From Escherichia coli (lineage in GTDB: Bacteria; Pseudomonadota; Gammaproteobacteria; Enterobacterales; Enterobacteriaceae), in NCBI RefSeq assembly GCF_044647545.1, contig NZ_CP172818.1: a stretch of 64,000 nucleotides of DNA; one strand, written 5' to 3'. Numbering within the stretch: position 1 is the stretch's first letter; each line of letters starts with the position of its first letter. Below, one piece after another: positions 3,560 to 64,000 of the stretch. Both the position numbers and the translations under genes were made by a program. The notes beneath the pieces are model-generated. The model did no database searches. It saw only the letters and a program-made list of their open reading frames with translations, and was not told the DNA's origin.

Positions 3560-4360
3560 ATGTATCAGGTTGTTGCGTCTGATTTAGATGGCACGTTACT
3601 TTCTCCCGACCATACGTTATCCCCTTACGCCAAAGAAACTCTGAAGCTGCTCACCGCGCGCGGCATCAACTTTGTGTTTGCGACCGGTCGTCACCACGTT
3701 GATGTGGGGCAAATTCGCGATAATCTGGAGATTAAGTCTTACATGATTACCTCCAATGGCGCGCGCGTTCACGATCTGGATGGCAATCTGATTTTTGCTC
3801 ATAACCTGGATCGCGACATTGCCAGCGATCTGTTTGGCGTAGTCAACGACAATCCGGACATCATTACTAATGTTTATCGCGACGACGAATGGTTTATGAA
3901 TCGCCATCGCCCGGAAGAGATGCGCTTTTTTAAAGAAGCGGTGTTCAAATATGCGCTGTATGAGCCGGGATTACTGGAGCCGGAAGGCGTCAGCAAAGTG
4001 TTCTTCACCTGCGATTCCCATGAAAAACTTCTGCCACTGGAGCAAGCGATTAACGCTCGCTGGGGCGATCGCGTCAATGTCAGTTTCTCTACCTTAACCT
4101 GCCTGGAAGTCATGGCGGGCGGCGTGTCAAAAGGCCATGCGCTGGAAGCAGTGGCGAAGAAACTGGGCTACAGCCTGAAGGATTGTATTGCGTTTGGTGA
4201 CGGGATGAACGATGCCGAAATGCTGTCGATGGCGGGGAAAGGCTGCATTATGGGCAGTGCGCACCAGCGTCTGAAAGATCTGCATCCGGAACTGGAAGTG
4301 ATTGGTACTAACGCCGAGGACGCAGTGCCGCATTATCTGCGTAAGCTCTATTTATCGTAA
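3560..4360 (+). CDS. yigL: HAD-family sugar/pyridoxal phosphate phosphatase, 266 aa
   Basis: ATG at 3560 in frame with longer track ORF; HAD motifs (DLDGTLL, GDGMND). Confidence 0.9.
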   Translation: MYQVVASDLDGTLLSPDHTLSPYAKETLKLLTARGINFVFATGRHHVDVGQIRDNLEIKSYMITSNGARVHDLDGNLIFAHNLDRDIASDLFGVVNDNPDIITNVYRDDEWFMNRHRPEEMRFFKEAVFKYALYEPGLLEPEGVSKVFFTCDSHEKLLPLEQAINARWGDRVNVSFSTLTCLEVMAGGVSKGHALEAVAKKLGYSLKDCIAFGDGMNDAEMLSMAGKGCIMGSAHQRLKDLHPELEVIGTNAEDAVPHYLRKLYLS

Positions 4361-4435
4361 TCGTTCTTTATTTGGTCAGTTGTCAACCTGATACTTCGCT
4401 ACAATGGATACTCGTTAATCAAAGAGTTTTCCATT

Positions 4436-14133: not shown

Positions 14134-16376
<2,243 letters not shown>

Positions 16377-29847: not shown

Positions 29848-31389
<1,542 letters not shown>

Positions 31390-31457
31390 CCTTAAAGAAG
31401 CGTACTTTGCAGTGCTCACACAGATTGTCTGATGAAAATGAGCAGTAAAACCTCTAC

Positions 31458-31534
<77 letters not shown>

Positions 31535-31576
31535 AATTTGCACCGCAAATTTGAAGAGGTTTTAACTACATGTTAT

Positions 31577-31652
31577 GGGGCTATAGCTCAGCTGGGAGAG
31601 CGCCTGCTTTGCACGCAGGAGGTCTGCGGTTCGATCCCGCATAGCTCCACCA
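31577..31652 (+). tRNA. alaT: tRNA-Ala (UGC), 76 nt, in the 16S-23S spacer
   Basis: ggggctatagctcagctgggagagcgcctgctttgcacgcaggaggtctgcggttcgatcccgcatagctccacca. Confidence 0.97.
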
Positions 31653-31835
31653 TCTCTGTAGTGATTAAATAAAAAATACTTCAGAGTGTACCTGCAAAGG
31701 TTCACTGCGAAGTTTTGCTCTTTAAAAATCTGGATCAAGCTGAAAATTGAAACACTGAACAACGAAAGTTGTTCGTGAGTCTCTCAAATTTTCGCAACAC
31801 GATGATGAGTCGAAAGAAACATCTTCGGGTTGTGA

Positions 31836-34739
<2,904 letters not shown>

Positions 34740-34831
34740 ACAACGCCGAAGGTGTTTTGGCGGATTGAGAGAAGATTTTCAGCCTGATACAGATTAAATC
34801 AGAACGCAGAAGCGGTCTGATAAACAGAATT

Positions 34832-34939
34832 TGCCTGGCGGCCTTAGCGCGGTGGTCCCACCTGACCCCATGCCGAACTCAGAAGTGAAACGCCGTAGCG
34901 CCGATGGTAGTGTGGGGTCTCCCCATGCGAGAGTAGGGA
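34832..34939 (+). rRNA. rrfA: 5S ribosomal RNA, first 108 of 120 nt only; 3' terminal 12 nt (actgccaggcat) replaced by unrelated sequence
   Basis: tgcctggcggcc..ccccatgcgagagtaggga matches 5S, then continues ccacctttttgcg instead of actgccaggcat. Confidence 0.85.
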
Positions 34940-34968
34940 CCACCTTTTTGCGTTGGTGCGGAATAAAT

Positions 34969-43857: not shown

Positions 43858-44004
43858 GATTCGCCTGAACATGCCCTTTTTTCGTAAGTAAGCAACATAA
43901 GCTGTCACGTTTTGTGATGGCTATTAGAAATTCCTATGCAACAACTGAAAAAAAATTACAAAAAATGCTTTCTGAACTGAACAAAAAAGAGTAAAGTTAG
44001 TCGC

Positions 44005-44113
44005 GTAGGGTACAGAGGTAAGATGTTCTATCTTTCAGACCTTTTACTTCACGTAATCGGATTTGGCTGAATATTTTAGCCGCCCCAGTCAGTAATGACT
44101 GGGGCGTTTTTTA
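44005..44113 (+). ncRNA. spf: Spot 42 small regulatory RNA, 109 nt, including its intrinsic terminator
   Basis: gtagggtacagaggtaagatgttctatctttcagacc..gccgccccagtcagtaatgactggggcgtttttta. Confidence 0.95.
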
Positions 44114-45141: not shown

Positions 45142-45384
45142 ATAGAGCGAGGACGCTAACAGGAACAATGACTCAGGATGAGGGTCAGGAGCGCCAGGAG
45201 GCGAAGACAGAGGATTGTCAGGAAGACAAACGTCCGGAGACGTAATTAAACGGAAATGGAATCAACACGGATTGTTCCGGCTAATGGAAAAACAGGGTGT
45301 GTTGGCGGCCTGCAAGGATTGTAAGACCCGTTAAGGGTTATGAGTCAGGAAAAAAGGCGACAGAGTAATCTGTCGCCTTTTTTC
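45142..45384 (+). ncRNA. csrC: CsrC small RNA (CsrA-sequestering), about 243 nt
   Basis: Multiple GGA motifs (caggatga, aggagc, caggaag, acggaaatgg, caaggatt, tcaggaaa) ending in hairpin ggcgacagagtaatctgtcgcc plus T-run. Confidence 0.9.
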
Positions 45385-45452
45385 TTTGCTTGCTTTCTGT
45401 TAGATTCCGCCGCAAATCTATACTGAATAAAACGGCTAAAAGACGAACCATT

Positions 45453-47589: not shown

Positions 47590-47745
47590 TTGCCTGATGC
47601 GCTGGGCAACAAAACCTGTAGAAATTATTGCTTTTGTAGGCCAGATAAGGCGTTTACGCCGCATCTGGCATCTGAGCATGATGCCTGATGCGACGCTGGT
47701 CGCGTCTTATCAGGCCTACGACTTTCTCCGCATCCGGCATAAACA
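47590..47745. repeat. REP/BIME cluster between hemN and glnG
   Basis: Repeated gcctgatgcgacgctgg / ggataaggcgtttacgccgcatc motifs. Confidence 0.85.
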
Positions 47746-52139: not shown

Positions 52140-52215
52140 AAAGGGCTGCACCATGATGTGAATGTTGCACCAATATAGTGCTTCAATGGAAACATTAAGC
52201 ACCATATTGGTGCAA
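52140..52215. promoter_or_regulatory. NtrC enhancer sites upstream of glnA (tgcaccaatatagtgc, gcaccatattggtgca) overlapping the glnAp1 region
   Basis: Repeated TGCACC-N5-GGTGCA-like palindromes. Confidence 0.7.
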
Positions 52216-52365
52216 TGGCCTTTGGATAACCCTTTTTATGCTCCGTGAAAGCGATCACAAAGGGACTCTGCAATACTTGTTTGCGGAGGATGTTTGTGAT
52301 CCTGTTTTGTAGTGCGATTAATCCGTGTACAATAACGCGCTATTTCTAATGCCTGAGGCAAAGTT

Positions 52366-54405: not shown

Positions 54406-55115
54406 ATGGCGGAGAATCAATCCACCGTAGAAAATGCAAAAGAGAAACTGGATCGGTGGTTGAAAGATGGCATCACCACGCCGGGTGGAAAACTCCCTTC
54501 AGAAAGAGAGCTGGGAGAACTGCTGGGCATTAAACGTATGACGCTGCGCCAGGCGTTGTTGAACCTCGAGGCAGAATCCAAAATCTTCCGTAAGGATTGT
54601 AGGGGTGGTTCGTGACCCAGCCGCGATTTAATTACAGTCCGGAGCTGTCAGCGAGCTTTCAGCGGGCCGCAATTGAGCAAGGACGAGAGCCTTCCTGGGG
54701 GTTTACCGAGAAAAACCGTACCAGCGATATTCCCGAGACGCTCGCGCCACTGATCGCAGTGACACCATCAACTGAACTCTATCGCATCACCGGCTGGGGG
54801 GCGCTGGAAGGACATAAAGTTTTCTATCACGAAACATATATTAATCCTGAAGTTGCTCCGGGCTTTATTGAACAACTTGAAAACCACTCATTTTCTGCAG
54901 TCTGGGAAAAGTGCTACCAAAAAGAGACGGTAGTAAAAAAATTGATTTTCAAACCCGTCAGAATGCCGGGCGATATCAGCAAGTATCTTGGCGGTTCTGC
55001 GGGTATGCCAGCGATCTTAATTGAAAAGCATCGCGCCGACCAGCAAGGCAATATTGTCCAAATAGATATTGAATATTGGCGATTTGAGGCCGTAGACCTC
55101 ATCATTAATCTGTAG
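54406..55115 (+). pseudogene. yihL: GntR-family transcriptional regulator YihL, interrupted by a frameshift near 54590-54615 (ORFs 54406..54615, 69 aa, and 54612..55115, 167 aa)
   Basis: Two adjacent ORFs in different frames overlapping at gtga; together 236 aa, matching the remembered YihL length (N-terminal HTH plus C-terminal UTRA-like domain). Confidence 0.7.
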
Positions 55116-55122
55116 GTGTTTT

Positions 55123-56103
55123 ATGGTGACAATAAATAACGCAAGAAAGATTCTACAACGTGTCGACACTCTTCCTCTTTATTTACATGCTTATGCCTTT
55201 CATTTAAATATGCGGCTGGAAAGAGTGTTGCCTGCTGATTTACTTGATATCGCAAGTGAAAATAATCTACGTGGCGTCAAAATCCATGTTCTCGATGGCG
55301 AGCGTTTTTCTCTTGGTAATATGGACGATAAAGAACTCTCTGCCTTTGGGGATAAAGCCCGCCGTCTGAACCTTGATATTCATATTGAAACCAGCGCCTC
55401 AGATAAGGCATCTATTGACGAAGCCGTCGCCATCGCGTTGAAAACTGGGGCATCGTCCGTACGTTTTTATCCACGTTATGAAGGTAATTTGCGCGACGTA
55501 TTATCGATTATCGCTAACGACATTGCCTATGTACGGGAAACGTATCAGGACAGCGGCCTGACTTTTACGATCGAGCAGCATGAAGATTTAAAAAGTCATG
55601 AGCTGGTGTCGCTGGTCAAAGAAAGTGAGATGGAATCTCTTTCCTTACTGTTTGATTTTGCGAACATGATCAATGCAAATGAGCATCCCATCGACGCTTT
55701 AAAAACGATGGCACCGCATATTACCCAGGTCCATATCAAAGATGCCTTGATCGTTAAAGAACCGGGTGGCCTGGGTCATAAAGCCTGTATTTCAGGTCAG
55801 GGTGATATGCCGTTCAAAGCGTTATTAACGCACCTTATCTGCCTGGGTGATGATGAGCCGCAGGTGACGGCATATGGCCTGGAAGAAGAGGTTGATTACT
55901 ATGCGCCGGCGTTCCGCTTTGAAGACGAAGATGATAATCCGTGGATCCCTTATCGCCAGATGAGTGAAACACCATTGCCAGAAAATCATTTACTGGATGC
56001 GCGGTTACGTAAAGAAAAAGAAGATGCAATTAATCAGATAAATCATGTGCGTAACGTACTACAACAAATCAAACAAGAGGCAAACCATCTTCTGAACCAC
56101 TAA
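55123..56103 (+). CDS. yihM: xylose-isomerase-like TIM-barrel (sugar phosphate isomerase/epimerase family) protein YihM, 326 aa
   Basis: 326-aa ORF in conserved position. Confidence 0.85.
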   Translation: MVTINNARKILQRVDTLPLYLHAYAFHLNMRLERVLPADLLDIASENNLRGVKIHVLDGERFSLGNMDDKELSAFGDKARRLNLDIHIETSASDKASIDEAVAIALKTGASSVRFYPRYEGNLRDVLSIIANDIAYVRETYQDSGLTFTIEQHEDLKSHELVSLVKESEMESLSLLFDFANMINANEHPIDALKTMAPHITQVHIKDALIVKEPGGLGHKACISGQGDMPFKALLTHLICLGDDEPQVTAYGLEEEVDYYAPAFRFEDEDDNPWIPYRQMSETPLPENHLLDARLRKEKEDAINQINHVRNVLQQIKQEANHLLNH

Positions 56104-56204
56104 TAAGTTTTAACTCATACGCAGTTAATAAAACCATTCCATATGAATGGTCGGTATCTTATTGCCTTTAAAACAGTGATTTTAAAAATCGCTTAGGGGA
56201 TGTT

Positions 56205-57470
56205 ATGCTCACGAAAAAGAAATGGGCGTTATTTAGTCTATTAACACTGTGTGGCGGTACAATTTATAAATTACCGTCGCTGAAAGATGCGTTTTATATC
56301 CCGATGCAGGAATATTTCCATTTGACCAATGGTCAAATTGGTAATGCTATGTCGGTAAACTCATTTGTCACCACAGTGGGCTTTTTTCTGTCTATTTATT
56401 TTGCCGATAAACTACCGCGCAGATACACCATGTCATTCTCACTCATTGCGACAGGATTACTGGGTGTTTATTTGACGACAATGCCGGGGTATTGGGGCAT
56501 CCTCTTTGTCTGGGCGCTATTTGGCGTTACTTGCGACATGATGAACTGGCCGGTCTTGCTCAAGTCGGTAAGTCGATTGGGCAATAGCGAACAACAAGGT
56601 CGGTTGTTTGGCTTCTTCGAAACAGGGCGTGGCATTGTCGATACCGTGGTGGCATTTTCTGCGTTGGCAGTATTTACCTGGTTTGGCAGTGGCTTATTAG
56701 GTTTTAAAGCAGGCATCTGGTTCTATTCCCTTATTGTGATTGCCGTAGGCATTATTATTTTCTTTGTCCTGAATGACAAAGAAGAGGCACCGTCCGTTGA
56801 GGTGAAAAAAGAAGACGGAGCATCGAAAAACACCAGTATGACCTCGGTGCTGAAAGACAAAACTATCTGGCTTATCGCTTTTAACGTCTTCTTCGTTTAC
56901 GCGGTTTACTGTGGCCTGACATTCTTCATTCCATTCCTGAAAAACATCTATCTATTGCCCGTTGCGCTGGTGGGGGCTTACGGCATCATTAACCAATACT
57001 GTCTGAAAATGATTGGTGGACCGATTGGTGGCATGATTTCAGATAAGATCCTGAAATCGCCAAGTAAATATCTATGCTACACCTTTATCATTAGTACCGC
57101 TGCGCTCGTACTGTTGATTATGCTGCCGCACGAAAGTATGCCGGTCTATTTAGGGATGGCATGTACGCTGGGCTTTGGCGCGATAGTCTTTACACAGCGA
57201 GCCGTATTTTTTGCACCTATCGGCGAAGCAAAAATTGCTGAAAATAAAACAGGTGCGGCGATGGCGTTGGGTAGCTTTATTGGTTACGCTCCGGCGATGT
57301 TCTGCTTCAGTCTGTATGGCTACATTCTGGATTTAAATCCGGGGATTATTGGCTACAAAATCGTGTTTGGCATTATGGCCTGCTTCGCATTCAGTGGTGC
57401 GGTGGTTTCCGTAATGCTGGTTAAGCGTATTAGCCAACGTAAGAAAGAGATGCTGGCGGCTGAAGCTTAA
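56205..57470 (+). CDS. yihN: MFS-family transporter YihN, 421 aa
   Basis: 421-aa polytopic membrane ORF. Confidence 0.88.
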   Translation: MLTKKKWALFSLLTLCGGTIYKLPSLKDAFYIPMQEYFHLTNGQIGNAMSVNSFVTTVGFFLSIYFADKLPRRYTMSFSLIATGLLGVYLTTMPGYWGILFVWALFGVTCDMMNWPVLLKSVSRLGNSEQQGRLFGFFETGRGIVDTVVAFSALAVFTWFGSGLLGFKAGIWFYSLIVIAVGIIIFFVLNDKEEAPSVEVKKEDGASKNTSMTSVLKDKTIWLIAFNVFFVYAVYCGLTFFIPFLKNIYLLPVALVGAYGIINQYCLKMIGGPIGGMISDKILKSPSKYLCYTFIISTAALVLLIMLPHESMPVYLGMACTLGFGAIVFTQRAVFFAPIGEAKIAENKTGAAMALGSFIGYAPAMFCFSLYGYILDLNPGIIGYKIVFGIMACFAFSGAVVSVMLVKRISQRKKEMLAAEA

Positions 57471-57476
57471 TTAATG

Positions 57477-57560
<84 letters not shown>

Positions 57561-61199: not shown

Positions 61200-63236
61200 T
61201 TAGATGCTTTTTAACGACGCGAACAGTGCCGCCCATTCGCTATCGGCGCGATAAAAGACCGGCGGTTTACCGATGGGCGCATTAACGGTAACTTCCCCGC
61301 CCCGGAACGCTTCACCCGTCCAGGCATGGACCCAGTTATCCTCCGGCAGATAGAGCGTCCAGTCGCTACGGCCTTCTTCATGCACCGGAGCGACCAGAAT
61401 GTCGCGGCCTAACAGGTACTGATATTTCAGGGTGTAGGTCTGCGCGTCGTCTTCGTAATGCAGGAACAGCGGGCGCATAACCGGCAGGCCGGACTTCGCA
61501 TTCAGCGCGACGGCCTCTTTCAGGTAAGGTTTCAGGGTGGTGAAGACGGTGGTCATACGGGCAAAATGGGCGATGGTTTCCGCGTCGCCGTCAAACTGCC
61601 AGTTGTCGCCAGGACGGTTACCTTCGTGGGTGCGCATCATCGGCGTGAAGGCGCTGAAATCGCACCAGCGCAGCAGCAGCTCTTTGCTGCGCTTCATCTC
61701 AAACAGGGTGGTGTAACCGCCAATATCGCTGTGATGCAGGCCATGTCCGGTCATTGCCAGCGACAGCGCCGCCGGGACAACCGACGCCAGGCCATCGTCG
61801 AGACTCCAGTCGACGTTCTGGTCGCCCGCCCACATCATGGTGGAGTATTTCTGGCTACCGGTAGAACCGGCGCGCATAAAGAAAAGGATCTCGCCAAGCT
61901 TGCCCGTTTCTTCAAGGGCTTCGTAGTTACATTTCGCCCACAGTGCGGGCCAGGCGTTATGCATAATTTCCGCGCTGACGCCGTTATGCAGGTAAGTGTC
62001 GGTGGGCAGATACTCGCCGAAGTCAGCCATCCAGCCGCCGCAGCCGAGTTCAATCATGTTCTTTTTGATCACTTCCTTGAACCAGGCGTAGGCTTCTGGA
62101 TTGGTGAGATCGACAACGCCGCCATAGAACTCGCCAAACTCCACCAGATAGTCGCCGCCAGAGGCATCTTTTGCCAGATAGCCGTGTGAAGCCGCCTCGG
62201 CGCAGAGGTCCTTATCGCTGGCAACATACGGGTTGATGTAGGCGAGGAACTGCACGCCTTCTTTGTTCCACTGTTTAATACGCGAATCCAGTTGCGGATA
62301 GTTTTCGCTGTTCCACTTCCAGTTCCACATCACACGTTTACCAAACGAGGTCATACGGATCCCGGACCAGTCCTGCGCCCAGATGCCGTTGACCTTCACG
62401 CCCGCGTTACGCATGGTGTCCAGTTTCTTCTGGCACACCTCAGTGCCGCCCTGAATGCCGAGCGTTACCCCGTCATAAATCCAGTCGGGCAGTTCTGGCT
62501 GGCGTCCCAGCAGGGCAGTTAATTTTTCCAGCAGGGAGATGTATGTATCAGCACATTCAAAACGCAGCGTTGCTTTGTCTTCCCACAGCGCCAGTTCATG
62601 GTATTCCGGGGCGCTAAAGTCGAAGTTCATGTAGCAACTGTTATCAACATGGCAGTAATACTTCTGCGTGCTGACAAACGTAGGCTGTGGGAAGAAAGTC
62701 CAGTAATAGTCGCCGCCCGCGTTCTCTTTGCAGTCGGCCTGCCAGGTGACATAGGTTTGCTTGTTGCGACCAACGCCTTGTTCACTGGTCCATAGCGGGA
62801 ACGGTTTGCCGCGCAGATCAAAGTAGGAGAATTGTTCACCGCAGCCGTAGATATGGTCCTCTGGTTGAGCGGCAAGGCGCAGCCAGATACGGTTGTGGTT
62901 AAGGTTGTCGTTTTGTAGTTCCAGCAATAAACGGCCCTGTTCGTCGGCAGAGATACGCAGCGTGGCGCTAATGTCAGAACCACGGCTGAAATGGATTAAC
63001 CAACCATCCGGTGACTGGCTGACGATGGCGTCGGTAAGCGCAATTTTCTCCTGTAGTTTATCTTTAATGCTGAAATTGCCGCGGAACATATCGATATCCG
63101 CAATACCTGAACCAATCCATAAACAAGGATTATCTTTGCTATGGGTTAAAATAAGACGCTGTTGAAAATGTAGGGTAAAACTGTCGTTATTCTGATGAAA
63201 CTGAAAATCTGGTAATTGTGGGCGTGGCGTATCCAT
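61200..63236 (-). CDS. yihQ: family GH31 alpha-glucosidase-like sulfoquinovosidase YihQ, 678 aa
   Basis: 678-aa GH31-like ORF. Confidence 0.92.
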   Translation of the reverse strand: MDTPRPQLPDFQFHQNNDSFTLHFQQRLILTHSKDNPCLWIGSGIADIDMFRGNFSIKDKLQEKIALTDAIVSQSPDGWLIHFSRGSDISATLRISADEQGRLLLELQNDNLNHNRIWLRLAAQPEDHIYGCGEQFSYFDLRGKPFPLWTSEQGVGRNKQTYVTWQADCKENAGGDYYWTFFPQPTFVSTQKYYCHVDNSCYMNFDFSAPEYHELALWEDKATLRFECADTYISLLEKLTALLGRQPELPDWIYDGVTLGIQGGTEVCQKKLDTMRNAGVKVNGIWAQDWSGIRMTSFGKRVMWNWKWNSENYPQLDSRIKQWNKEGVQFLAYINPYVASDKDLCAEAASHGYLAKDASGGDYLVEFGEFYGGVVDLTNPEAYAWFKEVIKKNMIELGCGGWMADFGEYLPTDTYLHNGVSAEIMHNAWPALWAKCNYEALEETGKLGEILFFMRAGSTGSQKYSTMMWAGDQNVDWSLDDGLASVVPAALSLAMTGHGLHHSDIGGYTTLFEMKRSKELLLRWCDFSAFTPMMRTHEGNRPGDNWQFDGDAETIAHFARMTTVFTTLKPYLKEAVALNAKSGLPVMRPLFLHYEDDAQTYTLKYQYLLGRDILVAPVHEEGRSDWTLYLPEDNWVHAWTGEAFRGGEVTVNAPIGKPPVFYRADSEWAALFASLKSI

Positions 63237-63589
63237 AAATAATCTCCATAGAGTATAAAGCTAATATTTCATGCCATCCTGTTGTTACAGGTTTCATTAA
63301 TTAAAGATTGTGTGCTATAAATAAAACCCCATAAGTGATATATAAAAACTTTTTCAGCCCGGCGGATTGCCGCCATTTTTAACCAAAAATGCCAGTTACA
63401 ATAATAACTAACAATAAACGGAGCAGAATCCAGCCGGGAATTCCCATCCCTTTTATCAACATAGAACCGGAGGCAATCAGCAACAAAAAGACCATCACAC
63501 GGAACACTTTGACTGAAAGCGTTTATGCACATATCTCCAACAAGCGAACCGAGAATCAGGAAAACAAAAAACACCAGTTAAAAAAAGAA

Positions 63590-63950
63590 ACATCAAAATC
63601 CCCCCCCCCCGCCCCCCCCGCCCCCCTTTTTGGGGAAAAAAAGGGTCCGAGGCCCCGAATCCCCCGGGCCCAATTCCAGCATACCTACACCCCCGCCCCG
63701 CCCCCCGCCCCGCTCGCCGCTACTCGCCGATACGCCGCGACCATAACGTCAAAACGACAGACAAGAAATAAACATAAAAAAAAAAAAAAAGAAAAGGATC
63801 CCCCTACCCATTAAAAACGTACATACAAACACACAAACAAACAACAAAAAAAAAAATAACGCCCCCCCAACACAAAAAAAAAAACCCCAACAAAAAGAAA
63901 AAAAAAAAAAAAAAAAAAAAAAACACCCCCCAAAAAAAAAAAAAACATAA
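63590..63950. repeat. low-complexity, homopolymer-rich (poly-C, poly-A) sequence; probable assembly or read-end artefact
   Basis: Runs such as c11, a25, ccccgcccc repeats and acaaacaaaca, atypical of E. coli. Confidence 0.8.
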
Positions 63951-64000
63951 TATTTCCTGTTGTGTAAATACAACCCTAAACAATGATCTCGTTCTTTTCT

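What the first reader, a model, noticed from the sequence alone, without database searches (positions are those of the whole stretch)
63590..64000. Terminal about 400 nt is homopolymer-rich low-complexity sequence
The sequence contains c11, repeated ccccgcccc, a25 and acaaacaaaca runs with very few G. This is unlike E. coli genomic DNA and typical of low-quality read ends or contig-end junk. It produces a spurious 141-aa plus-strand ORF (63389-63814) rich in P, K and A. It should not be interpreted biologically.
Basis: seen in the sequence. Interest (0 to 1): 0.45.

Follow-up and report, generated by a model that had tools for sequence, protein, structure and literature searches.

The report
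Garbled copy of a real gene
The homopolymer-rich stretch is a sequencing or assembly error that scrambles a real, common E. coli membrane-exporter gene (TauE/SafE family) next to yihQ, so it is not new biology and should only be flagged and re-sequenced.

Summary
The low-complexity stretch is real and extreme: 3-mer entropy is 3.5 against a window mean of 5.63 (sd 0.087), and 10 of the window's 19 homopolymers of 7 nt or more lie in 63580-63945. It is not a contig end and not random junk. The last 55 nt (63946-64000) are normal and match E. coli genomes exactly.

It is collinear with an intact 876-bp TauE/SafE-family exporter gene (291 aa, PF01925). That gene lies between yihQ and yihR in 1294 of 5426 complete E. 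coli genomes.

- Six independent genomes differ from the window at 0 positions over 61200-63307 and 63946-64000.
- In between, 638 nt stand for about 909 nt.
- Errors rise left to right from about 11% to about 87%, then stop abruptly.
- On the + strand G (42% kept) and T (59%) are lost far more than C (74%) or A (86%), and homopolymers are inflated.
- The garbled sequence is absent from 5426 complete E. coli genomes and 100,044 species-representative genomes, and its ORFs are absent from a 15-billion-protein collection.

Verdict: technical artefact, most likely one poor read carried into the consensus. The 141-aa ORF is spurious. The underlying gene is real and probably intact in the organism.

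The parts
61200..63236 (-). yihQ (sulfoquinovosidase), intact. This is the left-hand context and the quality control.
   Evidence: 678-aa ORF. Annotated yihQ in the matching genomes. 0 differences from six independent genomes over 61200-63307.
63237..63307 (.). Undamaged part of the yihQ-TauE intergenic spacer.
   Evidence: Exact match to L001 and L003-L007.
63308..63439 (-). Onset zone with sporadic loss of G and T. It holds the remains of the G+C-rich hairpin downstream of the TauE gene, and the 3' end of the TauE gene (stop codon remnant at about 63339-63341).
   Evidence: First differences are at 63308 (T for A), 63316 (GGG missing) and 63330 (G missing). They fall in the two arms of the reference hairpin TGCGGGT...ACCCGCA. 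The block aligns to reference 3810-3950 with z = 27.
63440..63535 (-). Nearly clean island inside the damaged TauE gene (about codons 230-260).
   Evidence: Aligns to reference 3951-4049 with z = 32. tblastn recognises TauE residues 230-280 at about 63376-63519 in frame -2, E = 8e-13, including the exact stretch SVKVFRVMVFLLLIASGSMLIKG.
63536..63799 (-). Heavily garbled but still collinear copy of the central part of the TauE gene. G and T are dropped or replaced by A or C, and mixed runs are smoothed into homopolymers.
   Evidence: Four consecutive blocks each find the next collinear reference segment (4052-4112, 4113-4194, 4198-4289, 4296-4368) with z = 5-11; 0 of 200 shuffles reach the observed score. 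Error fraction is 34-38% per 100 reference nt.
63800..63945 (.). Tail of A and C homopolymers carrying no detectable information. It stands in for about 350 nt of the 5' part of the TauE gene.
   Evidence: No alignment signal above shuffles (z = 0.3 and -2.1). None either when only the A and C letters are compared (z = 1.7, 14 of 300 shuffles reach it). Contains A11, C7, A11, A26 and A14.
63946..64000 (.). Abrupt return to correct sequence: the TauE start codon (CAT 63946-63948, which is ATG on the - strand) and the spacer towards yihR.
   Evidence: 55 of 55 identical to L001 4718-4772 and found exactly in L003-L007. yihR follows in the reference genomes.
63389..63814 (+). Spurious 141-aa ORF created by the garbled sequence. 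The - strand ORFs 63269-63574, 63749-63973, 63804-63983 and 63811-63948 are spurious too.
   Evidence: No Pfam family. The 141-, 101- and 74-aa sequences are not in a 15-billion-protein collection. The composition simply reflects C and A runs.

Best explanation
Window 63308-63945 is an artefact of sequence determination, not a property of the organism's DNA. The true sequence here is almost certainly an intact 876-bp gene on the minus strand for a TauE/SafE-family anion exporter (291 aa), with its downstream hairpin, lying between yihQ and yihR in the sulfoquinovose (yih) cluster. Shown: the consensus over this interval behaves like a single poor-quality read running left to right on the + strand. 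Accuracy starts to fail at a G+C-rich hairpin, then decays steadily. G and T are dropped or called as A or C, mixed runs are smoothed into long homopolymers, and the length shrinks by about 30%. The last 146 nt carry no information. At 63946 the consensus switches abruptly to good data. Inferred: the platform. The polar decay, the compression and the onset at a hairpin fit best the unresolved tail of a capillary (dideoxy) read left untrimmed in the consensus and joined to the next piece (about 55%). A bad long-read segment that polishing could not repair is the main alternative (about 35%). All ORFs inside the interval are spurious.
For: (1) Flanks against interior: 0 differences from six independent genomes over 61200-63307 (2108 nt) and over 63946-64000. 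Between them, 638 nt replace about 909 nt with hundreds of differences. (2) Those six genomes carry the same TauE gene, with 0-1 DNA differences among five of them, so a sixth was only compared at protein level. Across 1294 complete E. coli genomes the gene stays at 95-100% identity, so the window copy lies far outside natural variation. (3) Polarity: the error fraction per 100 reference nt runs 0, 11, 14, 15, 34, 38, 34, 59, 87, 56, then about 10% in the last short bin, whose errors all precede 63946. (4) Strand-asymmetric spectrum: G kept 42%, T 59%, C 74%, A 86%. There are 284 deletions against 13 insertions, and substitutions go almost only towards A or C. (5) Mean run length is 2.3 against 1.4 in the reference, with a maximum of 26 against 6. 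(6) Collinearity: each block up to 63799 independently finds the next reference segment, z = 5-32. (7) Uniqueness: no complete E. coli genome covers 80% or more of 62500-64000 (0 of 3919 with the locus). 63540-63780 finds nothing in those genomes. A 71-nt exact pattern is absent from 100,044 species-representative genomes. The ORFs are absent from 15 billion proteins. (8) All 54 contigs read that encode this window's exact YihQ or YihP allele have an intact TauE-family gene beside yihQ. (9) Elsewhere the assembly is clean: against IAI39, 40000-63254 shows 239 substitutions and only 6 gap openings. No other low-complexity patch exists in the window. (10) The first errors fall in the arms of a 7-bp G+C-rich hairpin, which folds better than all but 1 of 200 shuffles.
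Against: No raw reads, quality values or coverage are available, so the artefact is inferred from comparison, not observed. The source assembly could not be identified. The platform assignment is weak. The window spans a complete rRNA operon, which fits either a finished capillary-era genome or a long-read assembly. G loss does not depend on the preceding base, so a classic weak-G-after-A dye-terminator signature is absent. A nearly clean island at about 63440-63518 interrupts the decay. The return to correct sequence coincides exactly with the TauE start codon, about a 1-2% coincidence that the model does not explain.
Confidence: 0.93

Rival explanations
1. Same artefact class, different origin. 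The patch is a very poor segment of a long-read (nanopore or PacBio) draft. Polishing could not repair it because reads would not align to it, so it survived in an otherwise polished assembly.
For: The window spans a full rRNA operon (16S, tRNA-Ile, tRNA-Ala, 23S, 5S at 29848-34948), as long-read assemblies do. Errors are dominated by deletions. The clean island at about 63440-63518 could be a partly successful polish. The rest of the window is clean.
Against: Failed polishing would be expected to improve from both edges. Here the decay is one-directional with an abrupt right edge. A consensus of many long reads should not give A26 or C11 runs or near-total loss of G and T. The onset at a hairpin has no obvious long-read rationale.
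Confidence: 0.33
2. One reading: the stretch is junk at a physical contig end, unrelated to any underlying gene.
For: The composition looks like an untrimmed read tail. An internal end of an underlying sub-contig, later joined without a spacer, would look the same.
Against: Correct sequence resumes at 63946 in the expected order and orientation. The stretch up to 63799 is collinear with the TauE gene, z = 5-32. The window edge at 64000 is only a sampling boundary.
Confidence: 0.05
3. The sequence is real: a TauE pseudogene degraded in this strain by some local hypermutation or slippage process.
For: It occupies the position of a variably present accessory gene. It ends exactly at that gene's start codon and begins at its downstream hairpin, so it roughly covers one gene unit.
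Against: There are 0 substitutions in 2108 nt of left flank, yet more than 300 changes in 638 nt. The gradient is polar, base loss is strand-specific and homopolymers are inflated, which no mutational process I know of produces. It is absent from 5426 complete E. coli genomes, including those with identical neighbouring alleles. Natural alleles stay at 95% identity or above.
Confidence: 0.015
4. Foreign or chimeric DNA (vector, eukaryotic low-complexity contaminant) inserted or mis-joined between yihQ and yihR.
For: The base composition is unlike E. coli.
Against: The similarity to the resident gene is collinear through 63799, and the flanks are in the correct order and orientation. Only the last 146 nt are unassignable.
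Confidence: 0.005

Closest known systems
Untrimmed low-quality read tail carried into a consensus (classic capillary-era assembly artefact, such as single-read coverage at a sub-contig end or an unedited gap-closing read)
   Same: Accuracy decays in one direction. Resolution is lost, so mixed runs are smoothed into homopolymers. The called length is compressed. The final stretch carries no information. There is an abrupt switch to good sequence, the neighbouring sequence is perfect, and no other genome has it.
   Different: It lies inside the sequence, not at a visible end. No Ns or spacer mark the join. There is a clean island in the middle. Qualities or traces are needed to confirm the platform.
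Unpolished patch in a long-read assembly
   Same: A local island of deletion-rich, low-complexity errors sits in an otherwise accurate assembly that spans an rRNA operon.
   Different: The decay is one-sided and two of the four bases are almost completely lost, which is not typical of a multi-read consensus.
TauE/SafE-family (PF01925) exporter gene of the E. coli sulfoquinovose (yih) cluster, between yihQ and yihR
   Same: Same position. The flanks are identical. DNA is collinear over about 490 nt. A 51-residue protein fragment is still recognisable.
   Different: There is no open reading frame and no Pfam hit in the window. About 270 nt are missing and the 5' third is unrecognisable. The difference is attributed to sequence error, not biology.

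Membership tests
Sequencing or assembly artefact (poor single-read consensus) | Divergence is confined to the patch, with flanks identical to independent genomes | tested here: met
   0 differences over 61200-63307 and 63946-64000 against six genomes. Hundreds of differences in between.
Sequencing or assembly artefact (poor single-read consensus) | Error profile has read-like polarity and strand asymmetry instead of a mutational spectrum | tested here: met
   Error fraction rises 0 to 87% left to right, then ends at 63946. G kept 42%, T 59%, C 74%, A 86%. 284 deletions against 13 insertions.
Sequencing or assembly artefact (poor single-read consensus) | Not reproduced in any independent genome or protein set | tested here: met
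   Searches found no occurrence. All 54 contigs read with the same YihQ or YihP allele have an intact TauE-family gene.
Sequencing or assembly artefact (poor single-read consensus) | Low base quality or coverage in the raw data at these coordinates | not testable with these tools
   No reads, qualities or assembly metadata are available, and the source record was not identified.
Physical contig end | Sequence terminates in the junk, with no correct sequence beyond it | tested here: not met
   63946-64000 match the reference exactly and in register.
TauE/SafE exporter gene (PF01925) | Homology and synteny with the gene between yihQ and yihR | tested here: met
   Collinear block alignments, z = 5-32. 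Flanks identical. yihR itself lies beyond the window end.
TauE/SafE exporter gene (PF01925) | Open reading frame of about 291 aa that scores above the Pfam threshold | tested here: not met
   Window ORFs have no Pfam hit, whereas the reference protein scores 121 bits against a cut-off of 32.6. Only residues 230-280 are recognisable. The failure is attributed to sequence error.
Natural pseudogene | Changes compatible with natural variation at the locus and shared by relatives | tested here: not met
   Natural alleles are 95-100% identical in 1294 genomes. None shares the garbled form.

The most novel reading that the evidence does not exclude
The homopolymer-rich sequence is really present in this strain. 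An unknown, strand-specific and polar process would have degraded one whole gene unit, from its start codon to its downstream hairpin, by deleting G and T and expanding A and C runs, while leaving the flanks untouched.
Probability: 0.01. Interest if true: 0.6.

Novelty: not a real feature. Interest (0 to 1): 0.05.

Why it matters
This matters only for data hygiene. Left unflagged, the patch produces at least five spurious ORFs. It also hides a real accessory gene of the sulfoquinovose cluster, so a pangenome or pseudogene survey would wrongly score this strain as having lost or degraded its TauE-family exporter. It also shows that sequence that looks like junk can still be decoded by comparison: the true content of about 490 of the 638 nt can be assigned to the reference gene.

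Tried and rejected
- **Two-channel dropout in the last 146 nt.** I tested whether 63800-63945 is the reference with G and T simply removed, by aligning only the A and C letters. It was not significant (z = 1.7; 14 of 300 shuffles reach the score), so I make no claim for that part.
- **Weak G after A.** I looked for this dye-terminator signature. G is lost at about 47% whatever the preceding base, so it gives no platform evidence.
- **BLAST of the garbled core alone.** 63540-63780 in distant mode found no match. This is uninformative about homology because of the low-complexity filter, but it does show that no identical copy exists in the collection.
- **Exact 71-nt search in 100,044 species-representative genomes.** No hit, so the source assembly was not identified.
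- **Exact protein look-ups of three junk ORFs.** None is in the collection.
- **Tracing the source through exact YihQ and YihP alleles.** Both alleles are very common (listed in more than 4000 blocks of the index), so this did not identify the source. It did show that every contig read has an intact neighbouring TauE-family gene.
- **Metagenome scan.** I did not run it. The E. coli-specific collections already answer the question.
- **Literature search.** It only showed that seven papers mention TauE together with sulfoquinovose and yihQ. I read none of them and rest nothing on them.

Full report
**Observation.** C11 lies at 63600-63610, there are five CCCCGCCCC matches, ACAAACAAACA is at 63833, and there is a long A run of 26 nt (63898-63923), not 25. 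G makes up 10.7% of 63590-63945 against 26.3% for the window. The stretch is a gross outlier. The 3-mer entropy of 200-nt windows falls to 3.51 against 5.63 +/- 0.087 elsewhere. Ten of the window's 19 homopolymers of 7 nt or more lie in 63580-63945. No other part of the 64 kb resembles it. The 141-aa + strand ORF at 63389-63814 exists, and P and K are its commonest residues. However, the last 55 nt of the window (63946-64000) are ordinary sequence.

**What lies underneath.** The window is E. coli chromosome, covering the rrn operon, polA, glnALG, typA, yihLMN, ompL and yihOPQ. A megablast of 62500-64000 hits 3919 complete genomes, always as two pieces. The pieces span about 1772 nt of the record against 1501 nt of the query, and none covers 80% or more of the query. 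In those genomes an 876-bp gene annotated "sulfite exporter TauE/SafE family protein" lies on the minus strand between yihQ and yihR. Its product scores 121 bits on PF01925 against a cut-off of 32.6. The gene is accessory. It is present in 1294 of 5426 complete genomes, always at 95-100% identity, and it is absent from IAI39, which has a 198-nt yihQ-yihR spacer.

**Comparison.** I aligned the window globally to L001 and to five further genomes found through the window's exact YihQ protein.
- There are no differences over 61200-63307 (2108 nt).
- The first difference is at 63308 and the last falls just before 63946, after which the match is exact again.
- L001 and L003-L006 carry the TauE gene with 0-1 DNA differences among them; L007 was compared only as protein.
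- Within the damaged interval, 638 window nt stand for about 909 reference nt.
- The error fraction per 100 reference nt runs 0, 11, 14, 15, 34, 38, 34, 59, 87, 56. In the final short bin the few errors all precede 63946.
- Deletions (284) far outnumber insertions (13).
- On the + strand only 42% of G and 59% of T survive, against 74% of C and 86% of A. Substitutions go almost only towards A or C.
- Mixed runs are smoothed into homopolymers. For example, reference TGTTGTTTGCGGTGAAGAAAGCG appears as TTTTTGGGGAAAAAAAGGG. Mean run length is 2.3 against 1.4.

**Is the stretch unrelated junk?** No. I cut it into blocks and aligned each block locally to the whole reference interval. Every block up to 63799 picked the next collinear reference segment (3810-3950, 3951-4049, 4052-4112, 4113-4194, 4198-4289, 4296-4368). 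The z-scores were 5-32, and none of 200 shuffles reached the observed score. Only 63800-63945 carries no detectable signal, and comparing only the A and C letters did not recover any. At the protein level, residues 230-280 of TauE are still recognisable at about 63376-63519 on the minus strand (E = 8e-13).

**Independent support for the garbled sequence.** There is none.
- No complete E. coli genome covers 80% or more of 62500-64000, and the garbled core 63540-63780 finds nothing in that collection.
- A 71-nt exact pattern is absent from 100,044 species-representative genomes.
- The three largest junk ORFs are absent from a collection of about 15 billion proteins and match no Pfam family.
- All 27 contigs read that encode the window's exact YihQ, and all 27 that encode its exact YihP, have an intact TauE-family gene beside yihQ.

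**Interpretation.** Mutation cannot explain these features together: perfect flanks, a one-directional decay, strand-specific loss of two bases, homopolymer inflation, about 30% length compression, an abrupt return to perfect sequence, and uniqueness to this record. They are what a single poor read in the consensus produces. The rest of the assembly is clean. Against IAI39, 40000-63254 shows 239 substitutions and only 6 gap openings. So this is a local failure, not a generally bad assembly.

The first errors fall in the two arms of a 7-bp G+C-rich hairpin just downstream of the TauE stop codon. This would fit a dideoxy read losing signal at a secondary structure and then decaying into an unresolved tail, but that is inference. 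The window spans a complete rRNA operon, so a long-read assembly with an unpolishable patch is a serious alternative for the platform. G loss is independent of the preceding base, so no chemistry-specific signature was found. I put about 55% on a capillary read tail, about 35% on a long-read patch and the rest on other technical causes. I put about 0.93 on the platform-independent statement that this is an artefact overwriting an intact TauE gene.

**One unexplained detail.** Correct sequence resumes exactly at the CAT that is the TauE start codon (63946-63948). Together with the onset at the downstream hairpin, the damage therefore covers roughly one gene unit. By chance a breakpoint lands within 3 nt of a gene boundary about 1-2% of the time. 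I have no technical or biological explanation and treat it as coincidence.

The placement is not: this is not a contig end, and the damage starts at 63308, not 63590. Calling it content-free junk is also wrong, because it overwrites a real, common accessory gene of the sulfoquinovose cluster. Strains without that gene, such as IAI39, are the wrong reference for this junction.

**Verdict.** This is not a real feature and has no novelty. The interval 63308-63945 should be flagged as low quality and replaced after resequencing. The strain should be assumed to carry an intact TauE-family exporter gene until shown otherwise.

Noticed in passing
window 63946-63948: The return to perfect sequence coincides exactly with the start codon (CAT on +, ATG on -) of the overwritten TauE gene. 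The onset at 63308-63330 falls in that gene's downstream hairpin. The damage therefore spans roughly one gene unit. This is about a 1-2% coincidence with no explanation.
   Followed up: partly
window 29848-34948: A complete rRNA operon (16S, tRNA-Ile GAT, tRNA-Ala TGC, 23S, 5S) lies inside the window with unique sequence on both sides. The source is therefore a finished or long-read assembly, not a short-read draft.
   Followed up: partly
L001 3845-4720 and L002 27709-27905: The TauE/SafE-family gene between yihQ and yihR is an accessory gene. It is present in 1294 of 5426 complete E. coli genomes (95-100% identity) and absent from IAI39, which has a 198-nt spacer instead.
   Followed up: partly
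window about 54200; L002 17276-18622: IAI39 carries an IS4 element between typA and yihL that the window lacks. The alignment jumps from L002 17262 to 18689.
   Followed up: no
L008-L011 8275-10389 against window about 55100-57500: Genomes that share the window's exact YihP and YihQ alleles have different genes beyond ompL (a 281-aa protein, an ATP-grasp protein and a sulfatase). The window has ORFs that correspond by position to yihN, yihM and yihL of IAI39. The window is therefore a recombination mosaic around ompL.
   Followed up: no
L007 2019-2912 and 5083-6470: One public assembly (GCA_052953255.1) has yihP split into 255-aa and 175-aa ORFs and a TauE with an altered C-terminus (297 aa). 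This looks like indel errors or real frameshifts in that record.
   Followed up: no
window 14488-14739, 43995-44113, 45142-45395, 47639-47716, 52177-52284: Known small RNA families score above their Rfam gathering thresholds: Erse, Spot 42 (next to polA), CsrC, naRNA4 and ES222. All are ordinary for this E. coli region.
   Followed up: no
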